The notes beneath the pieces are model-generated. The model made no database searches. It saw nothing but the letters and a program-made list of their open reading frames with translations, and was not told the DNA's origin. DNA of 64,000 bases, taken from an uncultured Bacillales bacterium (GTDB lineage Bacteria > Bacillota_I > Bacilli_A > RF39 > UBA660). Within the stretch, counting starts at the first letter, position 1; every line of letters starts with the position of its first letter. Location of the stretch: contig CAOJRT010000002.1 in NCBI GenBank assembly GCA_948442255.1, forward strand, positions 8,088 to 72,087, written 5' to 3'. This document shows positions 9,901 to 32,175 of this stretch, piece by piece. A program made the position numbers and the translations under genes.

Positions 9901-12736
9901 CTAAGGAATTAATATCATGCCCACGTAGCAAGTGCATATAGTTTTCTGGTGGTTGTACCTCAATGTAATCGTAAAACTCCATTGCTTTACATAGATCTTC
10001 ATCACATCTTGTTTCTGCTAAATAAAAAACTTCTCCATTTAAGCAAGCACTCCCAATAAATAACCCTTCTCTATTTTCTTCAATTAGCTTTCTCGGAATT
10101 CTAGCATTCCTTGTAATAAAATTAGTATTAGCATAAGACACAATCTTAAACATATTTTTTAATCCTGTCTTATTTTGTGCAATAAAGGTTACATGTTTTC
10201 CATTATCATATAAATTAGCCAGATGCTCTGAAAAAGTCTTACCAGGAATATTTTCATACATTTGTAAATAATCATCTTTACACCAAGGAAATTTCCATCG
10301 ATAATCCATAATACCATATTTTTCAAATGGATACCCTAAACTTTCTTCTACTTCTTCCCCTTCTTCAATAGGCTTTATAATATAATTTTTATAAGAAACT
10401 AAGTCCCCAATATGTTCTAACTTTTTAGGGCTATTGCGAAAACTAATTTCTTCTAATAATCCCAGATTATTTAAATCACTAATCTTTTTTACTCCCTTTA
10501 TTTGATTTAACATCTTAGAAAAAATATAACCTGTATTTTCGGAGTCAACATCTGCTCCATGGTGTTGCCCAACATATACATTTAAAGAAAGACTCTTTTC
10601 CCCAAAATCATCTTCTACTTTGACAATGATTTCATTTCCAGCAGGATGCAATTTTATATGCCCATCAAAGTCAAGCAAACGAACTCCATCAACCACTTCT
10701 ACATCTACTAGTATCTCTTCTGTTTTAGATGCTTTATGAATTGTATCTAAGTGATAAATGTTACGATATTTTTTAACCCTATTTTCTGAAGAAAAGTCGG
10801 TATCATAATACTCCTGTTTCTCTATTTTCAAAACTTCTTCCCCATCTACTAAAATCTTAGTAAACAAAGAAGCAATTTCACTATCTATAATAGCACCACT
10901 TACACCAGATTCATTAACAGCTTCATCATCTTCATCATCCGCTTCTCCTGTATCAATGCCATAAAACTTTCCTAATGCTTTTAAACTATGTTTTTTTAAA
11001 TCGCGATTAATAACTCTAGATAACATTAAAGTATCAATAATCGGATTCTTTAATTCTCCTAAATCGTATTTATAATAAGCCATATCCAACATGTTTTTAT
11101 CGAATCGAGCATTATGTGCAACAAGTGGCAAATTGCCAATCCACTCTTTAAAACGTTTCGTAACATTACATTCATTATCTGCCGATTTTACATCATCATC
11201 AGAAATTTCAGTTATCCGAGTAATCGCCTCATCAATATGATGTCCAGGATTGATTAATTCATCAAAGCGATCAACAACTTCTCCATTTTTTATTTTGACA
11301 CCACCAATTTCAATCATTGAATCTCCAATCCCAGGGTTAAAACCAGTTGTTTCTGTATCGAATACCACAAAGGTATTGCCGTCTATTTCTTCTTCTGTCG
11401 GATTAAAACAAACATGTAAGAAAGACTCACACATTTCTATTTCTGTTCCATATCCAGCTTTAAAAAATTTTAAATTTTTTTTCTCTTCCTCAGCATCCTG
11501 AATCATTTTTTCCATCTCAGCAATGCCTTCTCCATTTCCTGATGTTTTTATTTCTTCTAAGCTCGCTTTTAATTCATCTATTTTCGCTTGTGCTTTCTTC
11601 TTAAGCCCCTTGTTATAAGAAGCAACTTCTCCAAAGACATGAGGAAAAGATTGACAACAATCATGGTCAGTTATAGCAATACCAGCGTGACCCCACTCTA
11701 TTGCTTGCTTAACAAGTTTAACTTCATCACATACACCATCCATCTGACTCATCATCGTATGTGCATGTAATTCACATCTCTTTTCTTCTTCCTTATCTAT
11801 CCTCTTAATCGTAGGCACATTTTCTAATACTTCATAACTTCTAAAATTAAAGACTAAATCATCTGCAAATGTATCAAAACGAACTTGTCCTTTAAAATGA
11901 AACCATCCACTCTTTAATTCCTTAGATTTTGTAATAAAATCTTCTTCATCTTTTGCAAAAGACTTGGCAAGAATACTAGAAGTATTATCGCTTATTTTCA
12001 AAGTGATTAAATATAAATCTCTTCCATCTTTCGTCTTCAATTGATTAAATTCTGAACCAAAGATATATGCTTCTAAATTAACGTTATTTTCTTCCCTATC
12101 AATACTTCCGATAGTTACAACGCCTTCTCTAGAATAATCAACTTTTTTCTTGTTTCCCCATCCATTAGAATCATTCTTATAAGAAGATTCTTCCTCTTTC
12201 ACAATAGCAATTGGACGATTTTTGGCTTCCTCTATTTCTTCTTGGATTTTTTTCTCATTTTCTTTATTAAGAGCTGTTGTAATTTCCATCTCATAAAATC
12301 CCATAGCAACTAAACCTGATACAAGATTTTTTATTTCTTTTTTTAACATGTCTGCAATTTCACTACGCGAATCTAACTCAATGATAATAAAATCATCATC
12401 AATTGTAATATTTTTATTTTCTAAAGAAACCAAAGAAGGTCGTTTTAAAATTAAATCACTTAATAAAACTTTAAAAGCTTCCAAAATATCTTGATCGTCT
12501 ACATCATTATAAATAAAATGAACATGACAAGGATTCTCTCCACGAATGCCTTTTTTTGCACACTGTAATAAAGAAAATGTGGCTTTTGGAGATAAAGGCT
12601 TTTCGTTTTCGATAAACACATTAAAAGAATTATCTTTTTTATTTAGTATAACTTTCGAGATAGATGCTCCCTCAAAATCTTTATTTTCATCTGTAAAACC
12701 TATACTTTTTAAAAAATTTAGCATCTTCTCTTCCAT
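6932..12736 (-). CDS. polC: DNA polymerase III alpha subunit, PolC type, unusually long (1934 aa)
   Basis: PHP motif CELHAHTMMSQMDG. DEDD exonuclease FVVFDTETTG / HNARFD / HHGADVD. Zn finger HYYCPKCQH...CPKCG. Core GYLVGSRGSVGSS, PDIDLNFSG, GTLGVPEFGT. C-terminal NQLSLF. Several extra in-frame blocks (see findings). Confidence 0.97.
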   Translation of the reverse strand: MEEKMLNFLKSIGFTDENKDFEGASISKVILNKKDNSFNVFIENEKPLSPKATFSLLQCAKKGIRGENPCHVHFIYNDVDDQDILEAFKVLLSDLILKRPSLVSLENKNITIDDDFIIIELDSRSEIADMLKKEIKNLVSGLVAMGFYEMEITTALNKENEKKIQEEIEEAKNRPIAIVKEEESSYKNDSNGWGNKKKVDYSREGVVTIGSIDREENNVNLEAYIFGSEFNQLKTKDGRDLYLITLKISDNTSSILAKSFAKDEEDFITKSKELKSGWFHFKGQVRFDTFADDLVFNFRSYEVLENVPTIKRIDKEEEKRCELHAHTMMSQMDGVCDEVKLVKQAIEWGHAGIAITDHDCCQSFPHVFGEVASYNKGLKKKAQAKIDELKASLEEIKTSGNGEGIAEMEKMIQDAEEEKKNLKFFKAGYGTEIEMCESFLHVCFNPTEEEIDGNTFVVFDTETTGFNPGIGDSMIEIGGVKIKNGEVVDRFDELINPGHHIDEAITRITEISDDDVKSADNECNVTKRFKEWIGNLPLVAHNARFDKNMLDMAYYKYDLGELKNPIIDTLMLSRVINRDLKKHSLKALGKFYGIDTGEADDEDDEAVNESGVSGAIIDSEIASLFTKILVDGEEVLKIEKQEYYDTDFSSENRVKKYRNIYHLDTIHKASKTEEILVDVEVVDGVRLLDFDGHIKLHPAGNEIIVKVEDDFGEKSLSLNVYVGQHHGADVDSENTGYIFSKMLNQIKGVKKISDLNNLGLLEEISFRNSPKKLEHIGDLVSYKNYIIKPIEEGEEVEESLGYPFEKYGIMDYRWKFPWCKDDYLQMYENIPGKTFSEHLANLYDNGKHVTFIAQNKTGLKNMFKIVSYANTNFITRNARIPRKLIEENREGLFIGSACLNGEVFYLAETRCDEDLCKAMEFYDYIEVQPPENYMHLLRGHDINSLDHLHTCLKKIIRCAKKIGKMVVATGDVHQIHPEDRLYREIIVNQNVPGKGRHPLARYLASSSKRCTNLENIAKVVEKAKSQGVLLNEVDQKVLKYIYVLTKIKKIAITSTNIAFIYAPDKKNAYEDSFKGRDGEAEKLKAVSSSLRKLSVAGIVREQDNVYILNGYYNDSVAAQEGHIPNQFFRTTKEMKEEFAFLEDADLIHEIVVENPNKIIEQLEDIEVVVYPDKPYSPIIEHSQETCRDLVFDKAHSMYGNPLPPNIEERIAQEFYGDKINDLVKENLTLLYPDKTDEERDAMFTPYLHDVIMSGYDGVIALKKEQVKRNSETELTNEEAIEQAKAQLTGIIGGGFDVIYLIAQKLVKHSNDDGYLVGSRGSVGSSFVASMMGITECNGLPAHYYCPKCQHSEFQDDEGVSYAENYPSGFDLPEKACPKCGEIMIHQGNDMPFATFLGFAGEKVPDIDLNFSGDNQASAHEYTKVLFGTDNVYRAGTIGTVADKTAYGYVQGYYEERLHDILKTEATSYGLTVTGKDDLKKKGVIKSFVRVPEVERIAVGCTGVKRTTGQHPGGIVVVPGYKDIWDFTPFQYPADDPTSAWRTTHFDYHAIDADLLKLDILGHDDPTVLRMLQELAVTYITHGKEFDVTAIDLGDLDTMKIFTGPEILGVDRYRLRGSVDKEGRKYCPTGTLGVPEFGTSFLLGMLEETKPTTFAELIKISGLSHGTDVWLGNARDLCTPNKEGVIEVPFKDVIGCRDDIMVNLIQWGMKPAKAFKIMEFVRKGKPSKDPATWADHAAAMREANIPEWYIESCRKIKYMFPKAHATAYVTSAFRIAWFKVHYPILYYCAYLSIRRDQFDIASMVRGGDAIRAKIDEIDTKGNQASNKDLDIRETLLLCLEMCERGFYFKNIDVDKSDGKKFIITEDEKGLIIPFRALDGLGENVADAIVKARKGGPFISIQDLRERGKVNNTSLEKLKELGCLDNMSESNQLSLF

Positions 12737-12745
12737 ATCCTACAC

Positions 12746-15646
12746 CTACAACTCTTCCATATTTGTAATAACAATTTGATATTTATCCAATCTTTTTACC
12801 ACTTGTCCTCTAAAACGAACAAAATCTCCACTTTTAACAAGATTTAAAAACGCATTATGTTTTGGAAAAACAATAAAATCAATGGTATCCGTTTCATCAC
12901 TAGCCGAAATAAACCCCATTGTTTCTCCTTTTTTCGTTTTAATTTTTCGCACACTATTTATTATAACAACACATGAAACAAATTTGTCAAAAAATTGCAC
13001 AATTCGATTAAGTTTCATCACATTATGTTGAAACTTACTTGCTGGATGATTTGTTACATAGTAACCAAATGTTTCTAATTCTTTTGTCATAAGTAGTGGT
13101 TCACTATATTCTTCATGCTCCACTATATTTGGTTTCATCACAAAAGACTCATCCAAATCATTGCATAACAACGCATAATCTAAAGCACTATCTATATTTT
13201 GAACCAATGTATTATGATTCACTCCAAAGTCCCGAAAACAATCAGCATCAATTAATGCTTCTATTGTTTTTTTATTAACACTTTTACCATATGTACGAGC
13301 AACAAAGTTAAAAAAGTCTGTAAATCTTCCTCCTTCTTTTCTAGCAAGGAGAATTTGTGCAACAGCCGCTCCACCAATATTATGAATCGCCGAAAGAGGT
13401 AATAGTAAAGCGTTCCCTTTGATAACATAAGAATCTAAACTAACATTAATATTTGGCTTAAAAAAACGTATATTTTTCTTTTTTGCTTCATCTATATATT
13501 CTTTTGTTTTTATTACACTGCCAATACTCATATTAAGTAGATTTGCCATAAAATAAACGGGGTAATTTGCTTTTAAATAAGCCATCTGATACCCTATTAA
13601 GGCATAAGAAACAGAATGAGCCTTATTAAACCCGTAATTAGCAAAAGCAAGTATGGTATCATATACTTCTTCTGCTACATCCTTAGTATAACCATTATGA
13701 ATAGAACGTTTAATAAAGACTTCTCGTTCTTTTTCCATAACTTCCACTTTTTTCTTACTCATTGCCCGGCGAATGTTATCGGCCTCAGAGAACCTATACC
13801 CTCCCATTAAAACCAAAACTTGCATTATTTGTTCTTGATAAACCATAATCCCGTAAGTATCTTTTAAAATAGGTTCTAAAGAAGAATCAGGATATATGAC
13901 CTTCTCTTTCCCCTCTTTTCGTCGTATAAACATATCAATATTTTGCATAGGACCTGGACGATATAAAGCCAAAGCTGCAACTAAATCACTAAAGGAAGTT
14001 GGTTTCAATTTGGCAATAAAACTTTTCATTCCAGAGCTTTCAAATTGAAAAACCCCCTCTGTATCCACTTGACGAAAGATATTCATCGTAACAGGGTCTT
14101 CTAGCGGAATAGAAGCCAAAGGAAGTTCTTTTCCTGTTTCTTCCTTAATAAGCTCTAAGACATTTTGAATAATAGTTAAATTACGCAAAGCCAAAAAATC
14201 CATTTTTAATAAGCCTAAATCTTCTAAAAATTCCATCGTATAGCCAGTAAGTAATTCTCCCCCATTATTGCAAACAGGAATCACTTCATCCAAAGGAACA
14301 GAAGAAATGACAACCCCAGCAGCATGAGTACTGATATGTCTTTTTAACCCTTCCAACTTATAGCTAATTTGATACACTTCATTTAAAGAGGCGTGTTGCA
14401 TAACAAAATCATGAATTGTCTTATTTTTCAAATTTTCTTCTAGACTACTTTTTGGATCCAACAAAGAACTCAATCGATCCACTAATTTCACATCTACATT
14501 TAGACATTTCCCCACATCGCGTATAACCTGACGAGCACCAAATGTTCCAAATGTCATAATGTTGGCAACACAAGTCTTACCATATTTTTCCTTAACATAC
14601 GAAATAACCTGGTCTCTTTTTGTATATTCAAAATCGATATCTATATCAGGCATAGTAATACGTTCTGGATTTAAAAAACGTTCAAAAAGAAGATCATAAG
14701 CTATAGGATCTACACTTGTAATCCCAAGTACATAACTAACAAGGCTTCCCGCAGCTGAACCTCTACCTGGTCCGACCAATATATGATGCATCTTAGCATA
14801 GCGCACATAATCATAAACAATTAAGAAATAATCAACAAAGCCCATAGAATGGATGACTTCAAGTTCATAATCCAAACGTTCTTCATAAGCAGATGGAATT
14901 TCGCCATTTAATCTCTTCAACAAGCCTTTTTTACATAATGAGGTCAAATAGGCAAAGGAATCTTCAATATCTTTATCATAATGCGGAATATAAGTTCCTT
15001 GTTTTGGAATTTTTAAATCAAACATCTGTGCAAATTCCTCTGTTGTCTTAGCATCCTCATCTAAGATTTCTTTATCTAAATAAGCATCACTATAGATTTG
15101 TAAATCTTGACTTACCCCCAAATCTATTTCTCTTAACATTCCTAAATATTTGACTTCTTGAAACGAAAAACAACACATTTCTTGAATATAAACAATATTG
15201 GAATTTTTAATGATAGCATTGCTCTTTTCAAAATGATTCTTATAACCAAGATATAAATCATGATAAATAGTAAGCAATTCATCATAAATAGACAGACTCT
15301 CAAAGGGAAGAACACAAAGTAAAGAACTCTTTAAAGTTTTTAAAGTAACATAACTGACTTCTTTGTTCTGAATCAAAGTATTTACCTTTAATAAATTTAA
15401 GTATCCTTCATAATTTTTAGCATATAAATAAAAATAGTTTTCTTGTAAATATACTTTAAGTCCTATAATAGGCTTAATGTCATTAGCTAAACATCCTTTA
15501 TAAAATGCCATACTTCCAAATAAGTTATCATCCAAAATAGCACAGGTTGAAAGATTATGTTGTTTTAAATAAGCAAATAATATAGGCATTTTAATTAAAC
15601 TTTGTAACAAAGAATAATCCGTTCGAATTCCAAGAGGCACAAACAT
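12746..15646 (-). CDS. dnaE: DNA polymerase III alpha subunit, DnaE type
   Basis: 966 aa. PHP N-terminus, GPGRGSAAGSLVSYVLGIT, MPDIDIDF, FNKAHSVSYA, C-terminal OB fold. Stop lies 9 nt before the polC start. Confidence 0.95.
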   Translation of the reverse strand: MFVPLGIRTDYSLLQSLIKMPILFAYLKQHNLSTCAILDDNLFGSMAFYKGCLANDIKPIIGLKVYLQENYFYLYAKNYEGYLNLLKVNTLIQNKEVSYVTLKTLKSSLLCVLPFESLSIYDELLTIYHDLYLGYKNHFEKSNAIIKNSNIVYIQEMCCFSFQEVKYLGMLREIDLGVSQDLQIYSDAYLDKEILDEDAKTTEEFAQMFDLKIPKQGTYIPHYDKDIEDSFAYLTSLCKKGLLKRLNGEIPSAYEERLDYELEVIHSMGFVDYFLIVYDYVRYAKMHHILVGPGRGSAAGSLVSYVLGITSVDPIAYDLLFERFLNPERITMPDIDIDFEYTKRDQVISYVKEKYGKTCVANIMTFGTFGARQVIRDVGKCLNVDVKLVDRLSSLLDPKSSLEENLKNKTIHDFVMQHASLNEVYQISYKLEGLKRHISTHAAGVVISSVPLDEVIPVCNNGGELLTGYTMEFLEDLGLLKMDFLALRNLTIIQNVLELIKEETGKELPLASIPLEDPVTMNIFRQVDTEGVFQFESSGMKSFIAKLKPTSFSDLVAALALYRPGPMQNIDMFIRRKEGKEKVIYPDSSLEPILKDTYGIMVYQEQIMQVLVLMGGYRFSEADNIRRAMSKKKVEVMEKEREVFIKRSIHNGYTKDVAEEVYDTILAFANYGFNKAHSVSYALIGYQMAYLKANYPVYFMANLLNMSIGSVIKTKEYIDEAKKKNIRFFKPNINVSLDSYVIKGNALLLPLSAIHNIGGAAVAQILLARKEGGRFTDFFNFVARTYGKSVNKKTIEALIDADCFRDFGVNHNTLVQNIDSALDYALLCNDLDESFVMKPNIVEHEEYSEPLLMTKELETFGYYVTNHPASKFQHNVMKLNRIVQFFDKFVSCVVIINSVRKIKTKKGETMGFISASDETDTIDFIVFPKHNAFLNLVKSGDFVRFRGQVVKRLDKYQIVITNMEEL

Positions 15647-17676: not shown

Positions 17677-17700
17677 GAAAAAAATCTCCAGAGGGAGATT
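17677..17700 (-). terminator. rho-independent terminator of the split CotD-like gene
   Basis: Minus strand AATCTCC-CTCT-GGAGATT + TTTTTT, starting 2 nt after the TAA at 17703..17705. Confidence 0.8.
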
Positions 17701-17702
17701 TC

Positions 17703-17819
17703 TTAAAAACCACATTTATTATCATATACATTACATACTTCATTTTCCTCACAACAAGTAAATACAGGTTGATAAGTATGTCTATATATATGATGATTAA
17801 TGATTCTCGTATTGATAGG
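17703..17819 (-). pseudogene. 3' segment of interrupted CotD-like Cys/His-rich gene (no start, RBS or promoter of its own)
   Basis: Frame not listed in the track: (HIV)P-INTRIINHHIYRHTYQPVFTCCEENEVCNVYDNKCGF*. The (V/I)NH.H..H....P pattern resembles the B. subtilis CotD core. Continues the 22627..22830 ORF exactly in frame across the shared CCT. Confidence 0.75.
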
Positions 17820-17854
17820 AACAATATGTCATTGCCCCTTTTTGATAGATTCAT

Positions 17855-18640
17855 TCATTTCTTAATGTATTTACATTTTGGATAATTAGAACACCCAATG
17901 AATTTTCCATATTTTCCATTTTTTTCAACTAATTCATTACCACATTTTGGACATATTATACTATTTTCTAATTCTCTATTATTATTAATTTTAATACGAA
18001 TATCTTTCACATGCTGTTTTCTTAACGACTTATCTTCAATATTATTAGATATAATTATATTTTCTAATTCTTTTATATCATTATCAATAAGTAATTCTTC
18101 ATGTTTTAAAATTTCACTTTTTAAATAATCAACTTGTGTGACTATACTACTACTTTTAACATCAACCTTTGCTTGATTAGAAAAACAAATAATCGAAACA
18201 AAATATTTATCATCTACTTTAAGTAAATTTGATAAAGATTTTATATGGCCAAAATTTTGATGAATAGGATTTACAAAGTAGCTTTTATTTTTTCCTAAAT
18301 ATTGACACCATTTATTATCATATTCTTTTCCTTTAATCAAACCATAATAATTTTTCATTTCGATAACAAAAATTCCAAACCCTGATATAACTACATGGTC
18401 AATTTGATGAGTTCCTTTTTCATCTTTTATCATAATATCATTTAAAACTACATATTTATTTTTAGGTAATTTTTTTAATTCTAATTTTACCCAAAACTCT
18501 CCCATAAATCCTCTAAACTTTGGATAATATATTTTTAATATTATATATAATACTATTAAAACACTTGTTTCTAATAACAACATTGGATTATTTAAATACA
18601 CATTTATAATTCCTTCAATAAAACTTTTAATCATATCCAT
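17855..18640 (-). CDS. NERD domain protein with C-terminal topoisomerase-type C4 zinc ribbon
   Basis: 261 aa. N-terminal TM, NERD-like core (QIDHVVISGFGIFVIEMKNY), C-terminal CPKCGNELVEKNGKYGKFIGCSNYPKCKY. Confidence 0.8.
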   Translation of the reverse strand: MDMIKSFIEGIINVYLNNPMLLLETSVLIVLYIILKIYYPKFRGFMGEFWVKLELKKLPKNKYVVLNDIMIKDEKGTHQIDHVVISGFGIFVIEMKNYYGLIKGKEYDNKWCQYLGKNKSYFVNPIHQNFGHIKSLSNLLKVDDKYFVSIICFSNQAKVDVKSSSIVTQVDYLKSEILKHEELLIDNDIKELENIIISNNIEDKSLRKQHVKDIRIKINNNRELENSIICPKCGNELVEKNGKYGKFIGCSNYPKCKYIKK

Positions 18641-18672
18641 GAAATCACATCCATAATAATTATATCATGATT

Positions 18673-20241
18673 CTAAGCTAAATCATTAAAAGTAGTCTTA
18701 ATATTTATTGTTTTGTCTTCAAATATTTCAATTTTATCAATTAAATTAATTATTAATTCTCTACTTGGTTCTTTCATAGATAAAAATTTATTAATATATT
18801 CATCAATCATTTTATTTTTAGATTCCTCATTAATATTGTCATTAATACTATTATTTAATTCCGTGTATCTTTTTTGCTTTATATTTATTTCATTTTCTAA
18901 CTTAACTTTTACTCTTTCAAATTGTTCTTCAGTTATTTTTTTATTTAACTTATCAATATAAATAATATCTAAATTATCATTTATTTGCTTAATGTCGTTA
19001 GTTAGTCTTTCTAACTCTTTTTTATTATTTAATTTATTATCTTCAGTTAAATTATTTAATACATTATTTTTAACTTTATCTTTATTAATATAATTTAAGC
19101 AGATATTAGTTAATGAATTGATTATAACTTTCTCTAATTCATCATAGTTATTAGAATGAGTTGTACAAAGTTTTTGTTTCATATAAGTCCTATAATAATT
19201 GCAAATTGTATAACATCTATTATCTTTTTTTCTTCTGGATTGTATGGATATTCGATATCCACAATTACCACAATATAATAACCCATCTAATAAATGAATT
19301 TCTTTTTTTTCATTTCTTCCTTTATTTTTAGGTATTCTTTTTTGAACCTCATAAAATTTATCTTTTTCAATGATTGATTCATGAGTATTTTCCACAATTA
19401 TGTAATTATTAGGATTATTCTTAACAACCTTTTTTACCTTATAATTTATTTTACTTCTTCTATTTTGAACCATATCACCTATATACATTCTATTAGTTAA
19501 AATATCTCTTATAGTTTTTGAGTGCCACTCTCCATATTTTAAATTGTAATTACTCTTCCATTCAAAGTTATAATACTGAGCAGGTGTTTTTACTCCTTCA
19601 TTAGTTAATTGTTTGGCAATTTTAAAGAATGATAACCCATCTAAACACATATCAAATATTCTTTTAACAACACTTGCTTGTTCAATATTTATTACTAAAT
19701 GATTTTTATCATCTTTATCTTGATCATATCCAAACGGGGTTCTACCTCCTACCCATTTTCCTTCTTTCATTTTTGCTTTTAAACTAGATTTTATTTTTTT
19801 AGAAATATCTTTTGCATACATATCATTCATTATAGCTTTAAATGGTGCAATGTCATTATTAGAATTATCTAAAAATGTATCTATATTGTCAGTAACTGCA
19901 ATATATCTGACATTATGTTCGGGAAAATACTTTTCTATTAAATTCCCAGTTCCAATATAATCCCTACCTAATCTTGACATATCTTTTGTAATAACCATAT
20001 TTATTTTACCTGATTCAATATCATTTAATAATCTATTGAAATCTGGTCTATCAAAATTAGTCCCTGAATACCCATCATCAATATAAGTATCATAAACTCT
20101 TAAATTATTCTCTTTTACATATTGGAATAATAAACTCTTTTGATTTGTAATACTCTCACTCTCTAATGCTTTATCATCATCTTCTCTAGATAATCTTATA
20201 TAAAGTCCAACATTATATATCTTATTTAAACTCCCTAACAA
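18673..20241 (-). CDS. large serine recombinase (resolvase/invertase N-domain + recombinase domain + zinc ribbon + coiled coil)
   Basis: 522 aa. Catalytic region VGLYIRLSREDD...SITNQ, MVITKDMSRLGRDY. Recombinase domain GRTPFGYD. Zn ribbon LYCGNCGYR...CNYY. Long C-terminal coiled coil. Confidence 0.93.
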   Translation of the reverse strand: MLGSLNKIYNVGLYIRLSREDDDKALESESITNQKSLLFQYVKENNLRVYDTYIDDGYSGTNFDRPDFNRLLNDIESGKINMVITKDMSRLGRDYIGTGNLIEKYFPEHNVRYIAVTDNIDTFLDNSNNDIAPFKAIMNDMYAKDISKKIKSSLKAKMKEGKWVGGRTPFGYDQDKDDKNHLVINIEQASVVKRIFDMCLDGLSFFKIAKQLTNEGVKTPAQYYNFEWKSNYNLKYGEWHSKTIRDILTNRMYIGDMVQNRRSKINYKVKKVVKNNPNNYIIVENTHESIIEKDKFYEVQKRIPKNKGRNEKKEIHLLDGLLYCGNCGYRISIQSRRKKDNRCYTICNYYRTYMKQKLCTTHSNNYDELEKVIINSLTNICLNYINKDKVKNNVLNNLTEDNKLNNKKELERLTNDIKQINDNLDIIYIDKLNKKITEEQFERVKVKLENEINIKQKRYTELNNSINDNINEESKNKMIDEYINKFLSMKEPSRELIINLIDKIEIFEDKTINIKTTFNDLA

Positions 20242-20411
20242 TTTTTACCTCCTTCTAGAGATAAATAAGTACATGACGATGGTACCTCACTTTTTTTATT
20301 TTTACAAATCATTTGAATATATTTTTTAAGCTCTTTATTTAAAATTTTTATAAGAATATCATTTATATCATTATTTTCGTCATAAATATAATTAATTTTG
20401 TACTTACCCAT
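20235..20411 (-). CDS. small protein translationally coupled to the recombinase (possible accessory/directionality factor)
   Basis: 58 aa from ATG 20411 (GTGAGGTG upstream). Its stop overlaps the recombinase start by 7 nt. No recognisable family. Confidence 0.45.
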   Translation of the reverse strand: MGKYKINYIYDENNDINDILIKILNKELKKYIQMICKNKKSEVPSSCTYLSLEGGKNC

Positions 20412-20857
20412 TATTAAGCACCTCACTTAAATTTATGGATAAATTACTAATTTTAGTAATACTAAATTGAGTAATATACAAATTACGCATATATTTAGTA
20501 TTACTTATAAGCTCTCACTCCTAACATAAACATCATCTCCTTTTTGCATGATGCATGATAGCTCCACTAAGAAAGCGAGTCAAGTCTTAAACTATAGAAA
20601 ATTTTGTCTATCATCCTAAAAATATTCATAATTTAATGGGTTATGAAATAGCAGGATAAGAAGTTTGTGTATCAATACATAGTTTTCGTTTTGAAATAAA
20701 GAAAACTATATACACAATTCTTATTTTGCACTCGCAAAATTCAACCTATTTGGTAGGATGGTATCAAGGATAAGTCTAATAATAGCAATAATTTTAAGTA
20801 CAAAAAAATCATCCTATTGTCTAATTTTTACTAGATTTAGTAGGATGATAAATTTTT

Positions 20858-21610
20858 TTAATTGTTTTCTTCTATTTCAAAATTTAATAATTCATCACAA
20901 GTCTTTTCAAATAAATCTTGCTCGTGTTTTATGGTATCAATTAAGAACATTTTATCACTAGTATATTCTTTTAAACCTCTCATATAATAAGGTTTATCAT
21001 CATCTAATACAATGAATGGCATAATGTTATTTCTTAAGCATTCTTTAAACATAATAATTCTACCAACTCTCCCATTGCCATCTCCAAAAGGGTGAATTTT
21101 CTCAAAATTATAATGAAAATCAATAATGTCTTCTAAAGTAATATTAGTTTTTGAATTGTATTCAACAAGTAATTTATCAATTTCTTTTTCTACATCTTTT
21201 GGTGCAGTAGTATTGATAACATTAACAAGACCTATCATATTTGGAACTACTTTAAATCCCCCAACATTGTATCTAGGATTTTCTTCATCGCTAGTATTTC
21301 TTTTTAATATTTTATTCATTTCAATAATAATTTCTTTTGATAACTCATTATCAACATGATCTAACATATAATCAAATAATTTAAAATGATTTTTAGATTC
21401 TGTTAAATCATCTAATTTTATCAAATCATCACTTTTAGGAATAAAACTTGATGTATCAAATATGGCCTCAGTCTGATCACTAGTTAACCTACTACCTTCA
21501 ATTTTATTTGAATTATAAGAAAAATTAACTTGAGAATAATGATAGATATTACCTTTAAATTTTGATTCTTTTTGTTTGATTAATTCCTTTTTAATTTTAC
21601 TTATATCCAT
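20858..21610 (-). CDS. Fic family protein (AMPylase-type, with N-terminal inhibitory motif)
   Basis: Start at ATG 21610 (GGAGGA 9 nt upstream). Fic motif HPFGDGNGRVGR. N-terminal SNKIEG matches the (S/T)xxxE(G/N) auto-inhibition helix. Confidence 0.9.
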   Translation of the reverse strand: MDISKIKKELIKQKESKFKGNIYHYSQVNFSYNSNKIEGSRLTSDQTEAIFDTSSFIPKSDDLIKLDDLTESKNHFKLFDYMLDHVDNELSKEIIIEMNKILKRNTSDEENPRYNVGGFKVVPNMIGLVNVINTTAPKDVEKEIDKLLVEYNSKTNITLEDIIDFHYNFEKIHPFGDGNGRVGRIIMFKECLRNNIMPFIVLDDDKPYYMRGLKEYTSDKMFLIDTIKHEQDLFEKTCDELLNFEIEENN

Positions 21611-21611
21611 A

Positions 21612-22520
21612 TTACATGTCCTCCAATGAAATATTAATACCTGACTCACAATGTTTATAAAATTCTAAAGCACTTAAATGATATTTTGGCTTTTTATAAT
21701 TATATATACAGAGGTTATTTTTATTATAATTATTATTTAGTTCATATTTAATAAATTTATCTCTTACATCAATTAATAAATCTTTTAAAAAGTTATATTC
21801 GTGTATACCTTTAAATCTTTCCCACGAATGTTCAAACCAATAATATTTATTATTTTTTTCAAAAGTTAAATACGTATGAGTAGGACATTTGTCATTATCA
21901 TAATGAACTATAAAATATGTTTTAATATTCCAATCATTTCCTTTAAAATAATATCTTTCTAGTTCTACTTGATCCCAACATACGCCAACTTTATTTTTAA
22001 TAATTTCTTTAGGACTTTGTAAAATATAATTATCTGAATAAGATTCATCAACTATTGTATGTTTATTATTGCTTGTGTCAACCCATCCATATTCGATATT
22101 TTCCATTAAGTTCATAATTTCAAACTCGTTATAAAATTGCCAAATATTAAGTTGTCCTTTTGCTTTTATAGGTTTTATAGGTTTAATATCTTCAAGTATC
22201 CAAGCATATCTTCCTTCTTCATATTTACCACAAATATATTCTTGATAATTATTTTTTTTCATTTCTTCTACATAATCTTTTGTCATATATACACAATCAA
22301 CTAAAGTACATTTGCATATTATATAACCAAAATTAAGTGGTATATTATCTACGAGTGACATAAATTCAGTATCTTCCTTCCAATCTTTAGGAATAGCAGT
22401 AGCACCAGCATGAATATATAATTCACCCCTATAAGTTGTTTTCCAACTTCTTGTCTCAATTAACTTCTTTTTTTCTTTTATCAAAGTAGCACAAGGTTCT
22501 GTTAAACTTAATACCTTCAT
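21612..22520 (-). CDS. ASCH (PUA-like) domain fused to a transglutaminase/papain-like C-terminal domain
   Basis: Start at ATG 22520 (AGGTGA upstream). N-terminus MKVLSLTEPCATLIKEKKKLIETRSW is ASCH-like. C-terminus has GVCWDQ...PTHTYL...WFEHS, a Cys-His-acid arrangement. Confidence 0.6.
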   Translation of the reverse strand: MKVLSLTEPCATLIKEKKKLIETRSWKTTYRGELYIHAGATAIPKDWKEDTEFMSLVDNIPLNFGYIICKCTLVDCVYMTKDYVEEMKKNNYQEYICGKYEEGRYAWILEDIKPIKPIKAKGQLNIWQFYNEFEIMNLMENIEYGWVDTSNNKHTIVDESYSDNYILQSPKEIIKNKVGVCWDQVELERYYFKGNDWNIKTYFIVHYDNDKCPTHTYLTFEKNNKYYWFEHSWERFKGIHEYNFLKDLLIDVRDKFIKYELNNNYNKNNLCIYNYKKPKYHLSALEFYKHCESGINISLEDM

Positions 22521-22626
22521 TAAAATCACCTATAAACATTATATCATACAAAAAGACATTTCTTATTAAAACGCCTTTCATTTTGTACTTATTTCTCTCT
22601 TTATATTTTTGGTCTATCATAAATTA

Positions 22627-22830
22627 TCACACTTGAGGTACATCATAACAAATTTGTCTATGACAAACTCTTTCTTGAGGACACTCCATAACTTGAGGAC
22701 AAGTAGAAGCTGAACAACATTGTCCCATTCCCATATTCATAGAACAATCCATACCAGTATTTGCACTATTCACATTGGTATTATTCATATTATTCATATC
22801 GCTTGTATCAAAACATCTATTTACAAACAT
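22627..22830 (-). CDS. 5' segment of interrupted CotD-like Cys/His-rich gene
   Basis: 67 codons, MFVNRCFDTSDM...QCCSASTCPQVMECPQERVCHRQICYDVP-QV*. The last two codons and the TGA come from element DNA. RBS AAAGGA. Confidence 0.75.
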   Translation of the reverse strand: MFVNRCFDTSDMNNMNNTNVNSANTGMDCSMNMGMGQCCSASTCPQVMECPQERVCHRQICYDVPQV

Positions 22831-22850
22831 AAAAACTATCCTTTCTACTT

Positions 22851-22878
22851 TATCTTATGTAAGAAAAGCATTTTATGT
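22851..22878 (-). promoter_or_regulatory. sigma-K-type (late mother-cell) promoter match
   Basis: Minus strand AC, 17-nt spacer, CATAAGATA (consensus AC-16/17-CATAnnnTA), ending 20 nt before the ATG at 22830. Confidence 0.45.
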
Positions 22879-22922: not shown

Positions 22923-23453
22923 TTATTTTTGCAAATCCAAAACAATTTGTAAAGAATCATATACTTCTGGTTCTAAAAGGATCGTTTCTTCTGTACTACC
23001 ATACTCTAAAGAAAAAAGAACATCAATCTTACTTTGTTTTGTAATTTTATCTCCTTCTTTTATTCCCTCTAGCTTATAAGTAAAATGTTCAGGTACACCA
23101 AGAACTTCTACACGATTTAAAATTCCATCTAATTCACCATCATTCACTATCGAAAAAGGAATAGTTAATACCCCACTTTTTTCAGTATAAGTTACTCCAA
23201 ACGCTAATGTATTCTCTTCTATTTCTACATTCTTGTGTAAAAATAAACTCTCTTTACTTGTCCAAGCATCTCCACAAAATTCTAAAGAGACAGAAAAAAG
23301 AGGCTCTGCTAACTTTGCATTATTTACACTGACTACACTTGAAACTCCATTATCCAATGTGGCACTTAAAGCAACCACACTACTAACTAAACTAGCAAAG
23401 GAAGCAAAAATTGCTAATATGGCTATTATTGAAACTTTCTTACTACGTAACAT
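22923..23453 (-). CDS. hypothetical N-terminally anchored protein (beta-rich domain reminiscent of the N-terminal part of the 498/489-aa paralogs)
   Basis: Start at ATG 23453 (AGGAG 8 nt upstream). MLRSKKVSIIAILAIFASFASLV anchor. Confidence 0.55.
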   Translation of the reverse strand: MLRSKKVSIIAILAIFASFASLVSSVVALSATLDNGVSSVVSVNNAKLAEPLFSVSLEFCGDAWTSKESLFLHKNVEIEENTLAFGVTYTEKSGVLTIPFSIVNDGELDGILNRVEVLGVPEHFTYKLEGIKEGDKITKQSKIDVLFSLEYGSTEETILLEPEVYDSLQIVLDLQK

Positions 23454-23520
23454 AAATTTACTCCTATCATATTTTCCAGTATAGCACAAAAGAAACAGAA
23501 AAAAAAGTAGTCTACACTAC

Positions 23521-30678: not shown

Positions 30679-32175
30679 CTACTCCGTCATTACATAAGGG
30701 GATTCACTTGTACCATCTCCACTTAGATAAGAAATTCCTGATTTTAATGATACAACAGGTCTAACACCAATACTATTCGAATTCCAATAAAATGTTACTT
30801 GTCGCCCAAAGACAATCATTCCCGAACGAGAACCAAAATCTAAAGAATGAGGAGACATCGTCCAACAATTTAAATTAGTAAACAAATAATAATGAGGATT
30901 AATCCCTGTATCGGTTGCACTCTTCTCTCCCCTTCCCCCTGCTAAAATCATTTCATCTGATGTAATAAGTCCAACAGGATATGTAAGCTTACCATTTCCT
31001 ATATCACTACTTACTGTAAAGACATCTTCCAGATTAGTAGCTCCTAATTTAACAGAAGTATTTGGCACATTTTCTCCCATAGTACCACCACTTCCCCAAA
31101 TACGTATTCTAGGGGCAAAATAAATAGTTGGGGCAGTCGCCTTAATATGATCTCGTTCATTATAGAATGGTGTGTCTTCTAAATACTTTTGGTAATCTAC
31201 TAAATTAGCAAGAAACCATTCGTCTATATAACTTTTAATAGCAGAATCTTCTGTATTATCATCATACATATATCCAACATATTTGGCATCATTCTGTTCT
31301 ACATTAAATGGAGAATTCCCTATTTGAGATGCTCCTGCCGTATTATTACAAACTCCTTTTTTTGGAACTCCATTATAAATAAGTTTCATTCCTCCTGTAG
31401 TTGTTGTTCGGATGATTTTCCAACAAAAATTAGCAAATAAAACATTGTTATTTTGTACATCTCCACGATAATAATAAATGGGGTAAGCATACGTAGCTGT
31501 CCTTGTTAATGTATAAACTCCTTTTCCATTCGTGTCACTTGAAAAGTCTCCAAAGTTGATTTCCAAATCACTTTGTGTTTCTTTTACTATTTGCTCATAT
31601 AAAGAATTTTTATTTCTTATAATTCCATCATTATTCTTTTGAATATAGTTTATTCTTCCTTCTAACGTTAGATTTGTACTAATTGTAGGATAAAGACTTT
31701 CATGCAAATCTTTTATATAGACAATTACTTTTAAAGTCTCTTTTTCTCCTGATGCTAGAACATCATTTTGCTTTATTTCTGCCCCATCTTTATAAGTGAT
31801 TCGATATTCTAAATATTTCTTCTGTGCAATTGTTAAAGGAGTCTTATAAATACTTTCAACTTGGGCATCTATAGTTCCTTTATTTACCACATCTATGTAA
31901 AATTCATAGTATTCATTTGGTTGACTAAAGGTTACTGTAAGAGAAACACTTGTTTTATCACTACTAATGACAGGTGGGATAGCACTCACACTCCCACTAC
32001 GTACTACAACATTTTCTAAATGTATATCCCAAGTCAGTTTATCCACATTTGCTACGATATCTAATTTTAAACTACTAGATAAATAAGCATACCCAATACT
32101 CATGCACAACAAAAGTATTAGGAGGCTTAAAATTAGCATTCTTTTTTTAGAAGATGCCCTTTTTATACTTCTCAT
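30679..32175 (-). CDS. secreted/surface protein, paralog A (498 aa)
   Basis: N-terminal anchor/signal ...LLILLLCMSIGYAYLSS, central FANFCWKIIRTTTTGG block, C-terminal IGVRPVVSLK...GDGTSESPY. Paralog of 53667..55136. Confidence 0.8.
   Translation of the reverse strand: MRSIKRASSKKRMLILSLLILLLCMSIGYAYLSSSLKLDIVANVDKLTWDIHLENVVVRSGSVSAIPPVISSDKTSVSLTVTFSQPNEYYEFYIDVVNKGTIDAQVESIYKTPLTIAQKKYLEYRITYKDGAEIKQNDVLASGEKETLKVIVYIKDLHESLYPTISTNLTLEGRINYIQKNNDGIIRNKNSLYEQIVKETQSDLEINFGDFSSDTNGKGVYTLTRTATYAYPIYYYRGDVQNNNVLFANFCWKIIRTTTTGGMKLIYNGVPKKGVCNNTAGASQIGNSPFNVEQNDAKYVGYMYDDNTEDSAIKSYIDEWFLANLVDYQKYLEDTPFYNERDHIKATAPTIYFAPRIRIWGSGGTMGENVPNTSVKLGATNLEDVFTVSSDIGNGKLTYPVGLITSDEMILAGGRGEKSATDTGINPHYYLFTNLNCWTMSPHSLDFGSRSGMIVFGRQVTFYWNSNSIGVRPVVSLKSGISYLSGDGTSESPYVMTE

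What the first reader, a model, noticed from the sequence alone, without database searches (positions are those of the whole stretch)
17703..22878. CotD-like Cys/His-rich gene split in frame by a 4.8-kb large-serine-recombinase element: candidate new skin-like sporulation intervening element
Seen directly: (i) ORF 22627..22830 (-) ends ...CHRQICYDVP-QV-TGA. (ii) 4.8 kb further along the same strand, an unlisted frame (17703..17828) reads HIVP-INTRIINHHIYRHTYQPVFTCCEENEVCNVYDNKCGF-TAA. It has no start codon, RBS or promoter, yet a perfect hairpin/T-run terminator (17677..17700) follows 2 nt later. (iii) Both break points carry the same Pro codon CCT (plus-strand AGG at 17817..17819 and 22636..22638, context GT[A/T]CCT). 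Removing the 4819 bp between the two copies fuses the frames exactly (...ICYDVP|INTRIINHH...). The result is a 102-codon ORF with its own RBS, a sigma-K-type promoter match (AC-17-CATAAGATA) and the terminator. (iv) The intervening DNA encodes a 522-aa large serine recombinase with a translationally coupled 58-aa ORF. It is more AT-rich than the flanks: single 60-nt lines hand-counted at 13/60 G+C inside (18961-) versus 22/60 outside (24061-). A TTGATAG motif recurs at the left flank, the inner left end and, inverted, the inner right end. (v) spoIIGA-sigE in this window show the host is a spore former. Established knowledge: skin (sigK, SpoIVCA) and SPbeta (spsM, SprA) are excised in the mother cell by large serine recombinases to rebuild late mother-cell genes. 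Inference: this is an analogous, very compact element targeting a CotD-family coat gene. I do not recall that target being described. The (V/I)NH.H..H....P core resembles B. subtilis CotD, but the family call is from memory.
Basis: partly seen in the sequence, partly recalled or inferred. Interest (0 to 1): 0.9.

Follow-up and report, generated by a model that had tools for sequence, protein, structure and literature searches.

The report
Mobile cassette splitting a spore-coat-like gene
A 4.8-kb mobile DNA cassette carrying its own serine recombinase sits precisely inside a small, conserved, spore-coat-like gene of an uncultured gut bacterium, and related cassettes split the same codon of the same gene in dozens of other species, so this is very probably a new and unusually widespread example of the 'cut out in the mother cell to rebuild a sporulation gene' elements known from Bacillus and Clostridium.

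Summary
Crossover is at a 2-bp CA core (minus strand 22635..22634 and 17828..17827). The element is 4807 bp and the rebuilt product is 106 aa (..CYDVPHIVPINTR..).

Two metagenome contigs carry the empty site with 100% and 99.94% identical flanks. More than 2,400 protein clusters are uninterrupted homologues.

Related elements split the same codon in 64 of 68 species-representative genomes examined. Their recombinases are 64-93% identical to this one. All 47 loci with both junctions rebuild an intact ORF in silico.

The recombinase is far more conserved (82-93%) than host Ffh (63-79%), so the element spreads horizontally. Its core is Fic, a 58-aa ORF and the recombinase; other cargo varies (2.8-7.4 kb).

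The target gene carries a sigma-E/K-type -10 box (39/47 loci vs 13/476 controls). So does the 58-aa-ORF/recombinase operon (62/73 vs 34/764).

CotD similarity is weak and below Pfam's threshold.

Excision in the mother cell is inferred, not shown. This is a new member of a known kind: new target, new host clade, very compact and very widespread.

The parts
22851..22878 (-). Promoter-like site of the target gene: AC-N17-CATAAGATA. The -10 box is of the mother-cell sigma-E/sigma-K type.
   Evidence: Read directly. CATAnnnTA lies at -34..-25 from the ATG in 39 of 47 distinct orthologous upstream regions, against 13 of 476 control ORFs. The upstream ~60 nt are nearly identical in a relative whose neighbouring sequence is only ~79% identical.
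22634..22830 (-). 5' part of the split gene, from the ATG at 22830 to the CA core at 22635..22634. In the occupied state it runs on into the element and stops at TGA 22629..22627, giving the 67-aa ORF.
   Evidence: The same 67-aa product (P0002) is indexed in 58 blocks of the collection; the 23 contigs read carry it with this element, or with its left part where the contig ends.
22613..22633 (-). Left arm of the element (attL, P' side): AGTGTGATAATTTATGATAGA. It supplies in-frame TGA and TAA stops.
   Evidence: Conserved across about 50 loci from different species. TGATAGA mirrors TCTATCA of the right arm.
17827..22633 (-). The intervening element, 4807 bp, counting one copy of the CA core.
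   Evidence: blastn of empty-site contigs L009 and L010 breaks at 22634 and 17828 with a 2-nt overlap. G+C is 23.3% against 31.5% in the flanks.
21612..22520 (-). Cargo gene, 302 aa: ASCH domain plus a weak transglutaminase-like match.
   Evidence: Pfam ASCH 21.9 bits and DUF553 20.4 bits. phrog_3193, E = 1.7e-29. Present in only some related elements.
20858..21610 (-). Fic-domain protein, 250 aa. It is near-universal in the element family and matches a candidate anti-phage defence gene.
   Evidence: Pfam Fic, E = 2.8e-14. PADLOC PDC-S04, E = 2.5e-99 over the full length. Found at 85-93% identity in most related elements, including the smallest at 2.8 kb.
20802..20849 (-). Hairpin ATCATCCTA...TAGGATGAT plus a T-run after Fic; a likely intrinsic terminator.
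   Evidence: Read. The stem arms and the T-run are conserved in the alignment of related elements. The consensus scan did not list it, because it has too few G-C pairs.
20652..20748 (-). Conserved structured non-coding element with three helices. Role unknown: possibly an RNA regulator or a cis-acting DNA site.
   Evidence: RNAalifold and pair counts: 96.8% of cells paired against 34-54% when partners are slid; 7 of 8 pairs of helix 3 carry compensatory changes. No Rfam match.
20555..20583 (-). Sigma-70-type promoter-like site TTGACT-17-TATCAT, upstream of a mini-ORF.
   Evidence: 10 of 12 positions match. The equivalent site in other elements reads TTGACA-17-TAGCAT. Such matches are common in this AT-rich DNA: 61 found against 51 expected.
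20455..20527 (-). Leader mini-ORF of 8 codons (20527..20501, ending ..AYK*). Its stop lies inside a 13-nt inverted repeat, AGTAATACTAAAT (20505..20493) and ATTTAGTATTACT (20467..20455).
   Evidence: Read. The mini-ORF end and the repeat are conserved in related elements. Function not tested.
20430..20437 (-). CATAAATT: a sigma-E/K-type -10-like box 26 nt before the ATG of the 58-aa ORF.
   Evidence: CATAnnnT lies at -34..-21 in 62 of 73 distinct upstream regions, including 10 of 10 in the clade whose recombinase is <60% identical. Controls: 34 of 764 ORFs.
20235..20411 (-). 58-aa ORF, a candidate recombination directionality factor.
   Evidence: No family match. A homologous small ORF abuts or overlaps the recombinase start throughout the wider clade, including prophage-sized viral contigs. 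Its position matches sprB-sprA and skr-spoIVCA (PMC6957869).
18673..20241 (-). Large serine recombinase, 522 aa. Its TTG start overlaps the end of the 58-aa ORF.
   Evidence: Pfam Resolvase 87.6 bits, Recombinase 86.7 bits, Zn_ribbon_recom 35.7 bits. phrog_95 integrase, E = 9.5e-114. Closest solved structure is the TnpX catalytic domain, 2mhc, E = 2.9e-27. Its 90%-identity cluster has 689 members.
17855..18640 (-). Cargo gene, 261 aa: NERD nuclease-related domain plus a topoisomerase-type C4 zinc ribbon.
   Evidence: Pfam NERD, E = 5.8e-28; Zn_ribbon_Top1, E = 3.3e-16. Present in only some related elements.
17829..17849 (-). Right arm of the element (attR, P side): TCTATCAAAAAGGGGCAATGA.
   Evidence: Conserved in about 65 loci as TCTATCAAAAAAGGGCAAGGA, followed by CA.
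17703..17828 (-). 3' part of the split gene: CA core 17828..17827, then T ATT GTT CCT ... TAA (stop at 17705..17703).
17677..17704 (-). Intrinsic terminator of the target gene.
   Evidence: An 11-bp stem and a 4-nt loop followed by U7; -11.1 kcal/mol, z = -2.64. Conserved in the relative L008.

Best explanation
This is an integrative, non-phage cassette of a previously undescribed family.

Shown:
- Its recombination unit is a 58-aa ORF plus a large serine recombinase.
- The recombinase targets a ~40-bp site inside the most conserved stretch (..E/D-V-P-H-I/V-x-P..) of a ~100-aa Cys/His-rich gene.
- That gene has a weak CotD-like core and a mother-cell-type promoter.
- Integration exchanged strands at the CA of the His codon, splitting the gene into a 67-aa stub and a promoter-less 3' piece.
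- Recombination between attL and attR at CA would restore the 106-aa reading frame exactly.
- The family moves between genera and has colonised this one site in many species.

Inferred:
- The recombinase and its small partner are transcribed from a sigma-E/K-type promoter in the mother cell.
- There they excise the element and rebuild the gene for late sporulation.
- The forespore chromosome keeps the element.
- This is the mechanism established for skin, SPbeta and gin.

The element costs its host little and also carries defence-type cargo (Fic/PDC-S04, NERD).
For: Precise, reversible insertion:
- Empty-site contigs have 100% identical flanks and a 2-nt CA overlap.
- The exact 106-aa product is in public assemblies.
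- A relative's empty site aligns without a gap.

Conserved target:
- 751 single-sequence hits and 2456 profile hits of about 100 aa.
- 16 invariant columns in the alignment.

Same codon hit in many species:
- 64 of 68 species-representative loci whose recombinase is 64-93% identical.
- All 47 loci with both junctions rebuild an intact ORF.
- The att arms are conserved, and the reconstructed attP is symmetric about CA.

Turnover without damage:
- Sister hosts with near-identical target proteins carry very different elements: L051 vs L081 and L032 vs L079, with recombinases 86 vs 64% and 89 vs 67% identical to the window's.
- Recombinase identity (82-93%) far exceeds host Ffh identity (63-79%).

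Mother-cell signals:
- CATAnnnTA before the target gene in 39/47 loci vs 13/476 controls.
- CATAnnnT before the small-ORF/recombinase operon in 62/73 vs 34/764, kept even where the recombinase is only 56% identical.

Other support:
- The small ORF sits where sprB and skr sit (PMC6957869).
- The host has SpoIIGA-like and SigE-like genes; these are the best NCBIfam matches but fall below the curated cut-offs.
- Per the papers read, skin, SPbeta, vfbin, gin and yin are excised during or in step with sporulation; vrin and the kamA phages are also reported as rearranged (PMC4191935, PMC5595907, PMC10747680, PMC6957869).
Against: - There is no direct evidence of excision. No attP junction was found in JGI metagenome contigs or in any of the 121 held loci, apart from a tandem array.
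- The two empty-site contigs differ from the window just after ffh, so they are element-free strains and not excision products.
- A sigma-70-type promoter, a leader mini-ORF and a hairpin also lie upstream of the recombinase operon. Expression may therefore not be limited to sporulation.
- The promoter boxes are consensus matches in AT-rich DNA, and the loci are related by descent.
- That the target is a coat or sporulation protein rests only on a sub-threshold CotD match and the promoter motif.
- The closest solved relative, TnpX, is known (from my own knowledge) to excise and insert without a directionality factor.
Confidence: 0.6

Rival explanations
1. Selfish site-specific cassette with no developmental role. 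The recombinase picked this site only because the sequence is highly conserved, like a tRNA gene, and so available in many hosts. The gene is simply off in carriers. Excision is rare, serves transfer only, and is not tied to sporulation.
For: - The element clearly spreads horizontally and accretes in tandem.
- It carries defence-type cargo, typical of selfish islands.
- A sigma-70-type promoter with a leader lies upstream of the recombinase operon.
- Its closest solved relative is the transposon recombinase TnpX.
- The host clade is reported to be losing sporulation genes (PMC10868615), so the target may be dispensable in some hosts.
- No circular form was seen.
Against: - The target family is under visible purifying selection: 16 invariant columns and more than 2,400 clusters. 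Yet it is occupied in a large share of genomes: 58 index blocks occupied against 2 contigs empty in this species, and dozens of other species.
- No decayed half was seen in 47 loci.
- The sigma-E/K-type -10 box before the recombinase operon is conserved across deep divergence.
- The tested precedents in mother-cell genes described in the papers I read are excised in step with sporulation.
Confidence: 0.3
2. Reversible on/off switch working in the germ line (phase-variation-like). Excision and re-integration in vegetative cells would create subpopulations with and without the coat-like protein or the defence cargo.
For: - Occupied and empty alleles coexist in one species with near-identical flanks.
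- There is a vegetative-type promoter.
- Elements turn over between sister hosts.
Against: - Serine integrases with a directionality factor are not known to cycle freely; this rests on established knowledge, not on a test here.
- The empty-site contigs are a structurally distinct strain.
- An excised circle has no evident replication function and would be lost.
Confidence: 0.07
3. Fixed insertional pseudogene or assembly artefact.
For: None beyond the bare fact that the gene is interrupted.
Against: - The same structure occurs in at least 23 independent metagenome contigs at 99.97% identity.
- It also occurs in dozens of other species.
- Both halves are intact everywhere.
- Empty sites exist.
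Confidence: 0.02

Closest known systems
gin element in gerE of Bacillus cereus ATCC 10987 (GirC serine recombinase plus GirX; PMC5595907)
   Same: - It is a non-phage element that splits a very small (225-bp) late mother-cell gene.
- It uses a serine recombinase plus a small directionality factor.
- Its attP-type site is an inverted repeat around a central dinucleotide.
- It spreads horizontally without transfer genes of its own.
   Different: - gin is 28.6 kb and has three recombinase genes; this element is 2.8-7.4 kb and has one.
- The target differs (gerE versus a CotD-like gene).
[quoted passage not shown]
- gin excision was shown by experiment; here it is inferred.
skin (sigK; SpoIVCA + Skr) and SPbeta (spsM; SprA + SprB) of Bacillus subtilis; skinCd of C. 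difficile
   Same: - A large serine recombinase rebuilds a mother-cell gene by attL x attR recombination.
- The directionality-factor gene lies directly upstream of, or overlaps, the recombinase gene (sprB-sprA, skr-spoIVCA; PMC6957869), as the 58-aa ORF does here.
- A mother-cell-type promoter lies in front of the factor (PMC4191935).
   Different: - Those are a defective prophage (skin), a prophage-like element (skinCd) and a 134-kb active prophage (SPbeta); this element has no phage structural genes.
- The 58-aa ORF showed no sequence relative in any library searched.
- The closest recombinase family hits are XisF and Ccr, far below cut-off.
- The target gene is new.
Tn4451/Tn4453 (TnpX) mobilisable transposons of clostridia
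   Same: - TnpX is the closest solved relative of the recombinase's catalytic domain.
- The element is small (about 6 kb) and moves through a circular form (from my own knowledge).
   Different: - Tn4451 carries a Mob gene and inserts at many GA-containing sites (from my own knowledge).
- No Mob or relaxase domain was found here.
- This element uses one strictly conserved site, with a CA core.
SCC cassettes (CcrAB/CcrC) of staphylococci
   Same: - They are compact cassettes moved by large serine recombinases into one conserved chromosomal site.
- Cargo is variable.
- They accrete in tandem; compare locus L059 with the account in PMC5595907.
   Different: - SCC inserts at the 3' end of rlmH (orfX) without inactivating it (from my own knowledge).
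- Ccr family scores here are about 109 bits against cut-offs of 900, so this recombinase is not a Ccr.
B. subtilis CotD / Pfam PF11122 (inner spore coat protein D)
   Same: - They share the His-rich core VPH-I-x-P-x-x-T-x-x-x-NH-x-x-x-x-H (hhalign E = 1e-4 over 21 columns).
- Both are small.
- The promoter type is as expected for a late mother-cell gene.
   Different: - The match is below Pfam's gathering score: 9.5 bits for this protein and at most about 16.5 bits among the eight members scored one by one, against a cut-off of 22.
- The Cys-rich flanks (MF.NRC.., CP.V.ECPQERVCHR, ..CCEENEV.NVYDNKCG) have no CotD counterpart.

Membership tests
Sporulation gene-intervening element (skin / SPbeta / vfbin / gin / yin class) | The element interrupts a coding sequence, and precise excision restores one intact reading frame. 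| tested here: met
   Joining at the CA core gives a 106-aa ORF identical to P0121 from the empty-site contigs. All 47 related loci with both junctions rebuild intact ORFs.
Sporulation gene-intervening element (skin / SPbeta / vfbin / gin / yin class) | It encodes its own site-specific (serine) recombinase and is bounded by attL and attR, which share a short core. The reconstructed attP has inverted repeats about a central dinucleotide. | tested here: met
   for the domains. for the CA core, with TCTATCA and TGATAGA at -21..-15 and +15..+21.
Sporulation gene-intervening element (skin / SPbeta / vfbin / gin / yin class) | The target is a sporulation gene expressed in the mother cell. | tested here: inconclusive
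   A sigma-E/K-type -10 box is strongly enriched (39/47 vs 13/476), and there is a weak CotD-like core. SpoIIGA and SigE are the best matches for two host ORFs, below cut-off. There are no expression or proteome data.
Sporulation gene-intervening element (skin / SPbeta / vfbin / gin / yin class) | Excision takes place during sporulation, in the mother cell only. | not testable with these tools
   Only indirect evidence: CATAnnnT before the small-ORF/recombinase operon in 62/73 vs 34/764 controls. No attP or circle was found.
Sporulation gene-intervening element (skin / SPbeta / vfbin / gin / yin class) | A recombination directionality factor is needed for attL x attR recombination. | not testable with these tools
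   The candidate is the 58-aa ORF. It is conserved next to the recombinase through the whole clade. It has no sequence relative in Pfam, NCBIfam, PHROGs, PADLOC or the PDB.
Large serine recombinase | N-terminal resolvase catalytic domain, followed by a recombinase domain and a zinc-ribbon domain. | tested here: met
   PF00239 87.6 bits, PF07508 86.7 bits, PF13408 35.7 bits; all are above their cut-offs.
CotD, Pfam PF11122 | Score at or above Pfam's gathering threshold (22 bits). | tested here: not met
This protein scores 9.5 bits. 21 of 24 family members give sub-threshold hits, the best with E = 2.7e-4.
CotD, Pfam PF11122 | Remote homology by profile comparison. | tested here: inconclusive
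   hhalign gives probability 56% and E = 1.1e-4 over 21 columns. The comparison was against a CotD sequence recalled from memory, which itself scores 58 bits on PF11122.
Prophage or defective prophage | Phage structural, packaging, lysis or replication genes, or their remnants. | tested here: not met
   The PHROG hits are an integrase and three families of unknown function. Only 5 ORFs fit in 4.8 kb. More distant relatives of the recombinase unit (56% identity) do lie on 39-56-kb viral contigs.
Tn4451-type mobilisable transposon | A Mob/relaxase gene with its oriT, and insertion at many sites. | tested here: not met
   No relaxase or Mob domain was found. A single conserved site is used in 64 of 68 genomes.
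SCC / Ccr cassette | CcrA/B/C recombinase at equivalog score. | tested here: not met
   CcrC 109.5 bits and CcrB 108.6 bits, against cut-offs of 900.

The most novel reading that the evidence does not exclude
A minimal mobile module (Fic + 58-aa factor + serine recombinase, about 2.8 kb) has made 'hide in a mother-cell gene and leave under sigma-E/K control' into a general host-range strategy.

It moves between genera of uncultured gut Bacilli, always into the same codon of a coat-like gene. It accretes defence cargo in tandem. It is excised in every sporulating mother cell.

If so, developmental gene rearrangement would be common in a major gut lineage rather than a curiosity of a few Bacillus and Clostridium strains.

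The conserved three-helix non-coding element upstream of the recombinase operon would then be a new regulatory RNA, or a transfer site, that controls the switch between transfer and developmental excision.
Probability: 0.35. Interest if true: 0.8.

Novelty: new member of a known kind. Interest (0 to 1): 0.68.

Why it matters
- Known sporulation gene-intervening elements are few: sigK, spsM, spoVFB, spoVR, gerE, yabG and kamA. Most are confined to single strains or species of cultured Bacillus and Clostridium.
- This one adds a new target, a small coat-like protein.
- It also adds a new host group: uncultured gut Bacilli, whose sporulation capacity and coat composition are debated (PMC10868615).
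- It shows a prevalence not reported before: the same codon is occupied in dozens of species-level genomes, and recombinase relatives were found in more than 500 genome stretches.
- It supplies a ready-made comparative data set of attB, attP, attL and attR for one recombinase family. That is useful for studying site recognition and for integrase tools.
- It gives a candidate directionality factor and a minimal 2.8-kb natural cassette.
- It marks an unannotated protein family of more than 2,400 clusters as a probable late-sporulation protein in these lineages.

Tried and rejected
- An exact attP junction search in JGI metagenome contigs found nothing.
- Short contigs carrying the recombinase (L119-L121) were checked as possible excised circles. 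They are element fragments.
- The one attP-like junction found, in L059, is a tandem array of two different elements, not a circle.
- I first read the empty-site contigs L009 and L010 as possible excision products. I rejected this because both diverge from the window right after the ffh stop codon.
- Rfam found no known RNA in the element.
- The sigma-70 and terminator consensus scans were uninformative in this AT-rich DNA: 61 sites found against 51 expected.
- I considered that the conserved TATCCTGC after the long hairpin is an IncP-type oriT nick site (YATCCTG|Y, recalled from memory). The consensus fold instead pairs it with an upstream TAGGATGA, so I do not claim an oriT.
- A profile search for a link to annotated CotD proteins listed only unnamed hits with no Pfam domain among the best 120.
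- The 58-aa ORF had no match in Pfam, NCBIfam, PHROGs, PADLOC or PDB sequences.
- I could not name the host beyond 'uncultured Bacilli/Tenericutes/Mollicutes/Erysipelotrichaceae MAGs'.

Full report
**1. What is in the sequence**

On the minus strand, an ORF starts at 22830 behind an RBS and the site AC-N17-CATAAGATA (22878..22851). It ends after 67 codons..CHRQICYDVPQV-TGA.

About 4.8 kb further on, a frame with no start codon reads TGA-HIVPINTRIINHHIYRHTYQPVFTCCEENEVCNVYDNKCGF-TAA (17828..17703). An 11-bp hairpin and a U-run follow it (-11.1 kcal/mol, z = -2.6).

Five co-oriented ORFs lie in between:
- a 302-aa ASCH-domain protein with a weak transglutaminase-like match;
- a 250-aa Fic protein;
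- a 58-aa ORF;
- a 522-aa large serine recombinase (Resolvase + Recombinase + Zn_ribbon_recom) whose TTG start overlaps the end of the 58-aa ORF;
- a 261-aa NERD plus Top1-type zinc-ribbon protein.

The insert has 23.3% G+C against 31.4-31.6% in the flanks.

**2.

Deleting 17820..22638 (shared CCT) does give a 102-codon frame. However, 751 database proteins of about 100 aa match the fusion over its whole length, and they read ..VPHI(I/V)PINTR.. at the join.

Joining instead at the dinucleotide CA (22635..22634 and 17828..17827) gives 106 aa with ..CYDVPHIVPINTR... That exact sequence is in public assemblies (P0121).

P0121 is encoded on two metagenome contigs (L009, 15 kb; L010) that carry the same neighbours but no element.
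- One flank of each contig is 100% identical to the window. The other is 99.94% (L009, over 8.1 kb) or 100% (L010).
- The two blastn pieces stop at window 22634 and 17828 and overlap by 2 nt.
- A more distant relative's empty site (L008, product 88% identical) aligns to the in-silico excised sequence without a gap.

So the element is 4807 bp, and the identity shared by attL and attR is exactly 2 bp. That is the hallmark of a serine integrase crossover.

The reconstructed attP is TCTATCAAAAAGGGGCAATGA-CA-AGTGTGATAATTTATGATAGA. It carries the 7-nt inverted repeat TCTATCA/TGATAGA at exactly mirrored positions.

**3. It is a family, not a one-off**

- The same element at the same site, 99.97% identical, is on at least 23 independent metagenome contigs.
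- The recombinase's 90%-identity cluster has 689 members.
All of the best 80 are gut MAGs labelled uncultured Bacilli, Tenericutes, Mollicutes, Erysipelotrichaceae or similar.

I built a profile of the target family and searched those loci.
- Of the 68 loci whose recombinase is 64-93% identical to this one, 64 have a half of the same gene on the same strand, split at the same profile position.
- The 5' half lies upstream of the element and the 3' half downstream.
- The four exceptions are short or truncated contigs.
- In all 47 loci that hold both junctions, joining at CA gives an intact ORF of 87-150 aa with the family's usual C-terminus.
- Element sizes run from 2810 to 7438 bp.
- The arms are conserved: host ..GT.CC.CA | AG(A/T)GTGATAATTTATGATAGAC on the left, and TCTATCAAAAAAGGGCAAGGA-CA | host on the right.

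**4. It moves horizontally and turns over**

Between hosts whose Ffh proteins are only 63-79% identical, the recombinases are 82-93% identical, the Fic proteins 85-93% and the 58-aa ORFs 56-90%.

Sister hosts with nearly identical target proteins carry very different elements. For L051 vs L081 the recombinases are 86 and 64% identical to the window's; for L032 vs L079 they are 89 and 67%.

One genome (L059) holds two different elements in tandem. They are joined by an attP-like hybrid junction, which implies recombination between an incoming attP and a resident attL or attR.

The smallest elements consist of Fic, the small ORF and the recombinase. ASCH, NERD, GNAT and a 527-aa protein are variable cargo.

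The Fic protein matches the PADLOC defence candidate PDC-S04 over its full length (E = 2.5e-99).

There are no phage structural genes. However, recombinases 56% identical, each with a homologous small ORF, lie on 39-56-kb viral contigs. The recombination unit is thus probably of phage origin.

**5. What the target is**

The family is large: 2456 clusters by profile search, none of the 120 listed carrying a name. It is also well conserved, with 16 invariant columns.

- Pfam CotD (PF11122) is the only family that recurs. It hits 21 of 24 members, always below threshold: this protein scores 9.5 bits against a cut-off of 22, and the best E-value is 2.7e-4.
- A profile comparison with B. subtilis CotD aligns only the core VPHIxPxxTxxxNHxxxxH (probability 56%, E = 1e-4).
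- The split falls inside this core.
- I therefore call the gene CotD-like in motif only, not a member of the family.

Its promoter is more telling. CATAnnnTA, the -10 box of mother-cell sigma factors (from established B. subtilis consensus, my own knowledge), lies 25-34 nt before the ATG in 39 of 47 distinct orthologous upstream regions. Among control ORFs in the same loci the figure is 13 of 476.

SpoIIGA and SigE are the best NCBIfam matches for two ORFs in the window, both below the curated cut-offs.

Published genome surveys predict that these uncultured Bacilli orders contain sporulators with few recognisable coat genes (PMC10868615).

**6. How it most likely works**

Shown: integration by a serine recombinase at CA, and full reversibility at the sequence level.

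Inferred: timing of excision.
- The small ORF sits where the directionality factors sprB and skr sit relative to sprA and spoIVCA (PMC6957869). It is kept next to the recombinase across the whole clade.
- About 26 nt before its ATG there is a CATAnnnT box (window 20437..20430).
- That box is present in 62 of 73 distinct upstream regions, including 10 of 10 in the clade whose recombinase is <60% identical, where the surrounding sequence has diverged. The control figure is 34 of 764.
- Further upstream lie four features: a terminator after Fic; a three-helix structured element with clear compensatory changes and no Rfam match; a sigma-70-type promoter-like site; and a leader mini-ORF whose stop codon lies in a 13-nt inverted repeat.
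- Two promoter types in front of the factor gene recall sprB, which has a stress promoter and a sigma-E/K promoter (PMC4191935, PMC6957869).

Taken together with the population argument, mother-cell excision is the best-supported reading. The population argument is that a gene under purifying selection is occupied in a large share of genomes with no decay of either half.

I put that reading at about 0.6, because no excision product was seen:
- the attP search in JGI contigs was empty;
- no held contig is a circle;
- the empty-site contigs belong to a strain that differs just after ffh.

The main rival, at about 0.3, is a selfish cassette that simply uses a conserved sequence as a landing pad and leaves the gene off.

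**7. Comparison with what is known**

Targets reported for such elements are sigK, spsM, spoVFB, spoVR, gerE, yabG and kamA (PMC4191935, PMC5595907, PMC6957869, PMC10747680). My full-text searches found no cotD-like target and no description of this family.

- The closest analogue is gin in gerE: non-phage, a very small target gene, and a recombinase plus a small factor. But gin is 28.6 kb, has three recombinase genes, and is restricted to the B. cereus group.
- By sequence, the closest solved recombinase is TnpX of Tn4451.
- Ccr and XisF family scores are far below cut-off.

**8. Verdict**

- This is a new member of a known kind: a new target and host clade, unusually compact and unusually widespread.
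- Developmental excision remains to be shown.

Noticed in passing
window 40839..41774 (-): A 311-aa retron-type reverse transcriptase. NCBIfam retron St85 RT gives E = 5.5e-62 (below cut-off), and PADLOC RT_Ec107-like gives E = 1.2e-109. It is probably a defence retron unrelated to the finding.
   Followed up: partly
window 20652..20748 (-): A conserved three-helix structured element between Fic and the recombinase operon. 96.8% of cells are paired, and 7 of 8 pairs of the long helix show compensatory changes across 15 elements. There is no Rfam family. G-U pairs favour the sense strand. Its 3' strand contains TATCCTGC, which resembles an IncP-type nick site (from memory), but in the consensus fold that stretch is paired.
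   Followed up: partly
window 20455..20583 (-): A sigma-70-like site (TTGACT-17-TATCAT) is followed by an 8-codon mini-ORF ending ..AYK*. The mini-ORF's stop codon lies inside a 13-nt perfect inverted repeat (AGTAATACTAAAT ... ATTTAGTATTACT). This looks like a leader-peptide control device for the small-ORF/recombinase operon.
   Followed up: partly
L059:1-8500: Two different elements, whose recombinase genes are 78% identical at the DNA level, sit in tandem in one target gene. They are joined by a hybrid attP-like junction, ATCTATCAAAAAGGAGCAAGGA-CA-AGTGTGATAATTTATGATAGA. This implies accretion through non-canonical att recombination, as in SCC arrays.
   Followed up: yes
L090-L101, L104, L105 (e.g. 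L091:9545-10312, L100:9554-10021): The sister clade of recombinases (56% identical, with the same small upstream ORF) includes some on 39-56-kb viral contigs. In the five loci inspected, the recombinase gene ends directly against an ORF that begins inside a LysM repeat (..KIVSGDTLW..). That ORF matches the SafA/ExsA-type LysM domain at 103-129 bits against a cut-off of 68. This may be a second, different sporulation-coat gene split by a related recombination unit.
   Followed up: partly
window 23524 versus L009:1-52 and L010:1-27: The element-free strain has different sequence immediately after the ffh stop codon. Both of its contigs end about 30-50 nt further on, which suggests a repeat or a second insertion there.
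   Followed up: no
window 20858..21610 (-): The Fic protein belongs to a 90%-identity cluster of 1999 members. It is the PADLOC candidate defence gene PDC-S04. It lies just downstream of the host gene's mother-cell promoter in the smallest elements, so that promoter might drive it. Not tested.
   Followed up: no
window 6932..12736 (-) and 12746..15646 (-): A PolC-like ORF of 1934 aa (PHP, RNase_T, DNA_pol3_alpha domains) lies next to a 966-aa DnaE-like ORF. This is several hundred residues longer than the PolC I recall from Bacillus.
   Followed up: no
window 30679..32175 (-), 53667..55136 (-), 22923..23489 (-): Three ORFs (498, 489 and 188 aa) have similar N-terminal signal-like segments (..KKR/KVLxLxLLIxxLCMxIGYAxLS..). 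The 188-aa ORF had no family match; the other two were not scanned. The 188-aa ORF lies directly upstream of the target gene.
   Followed up: no
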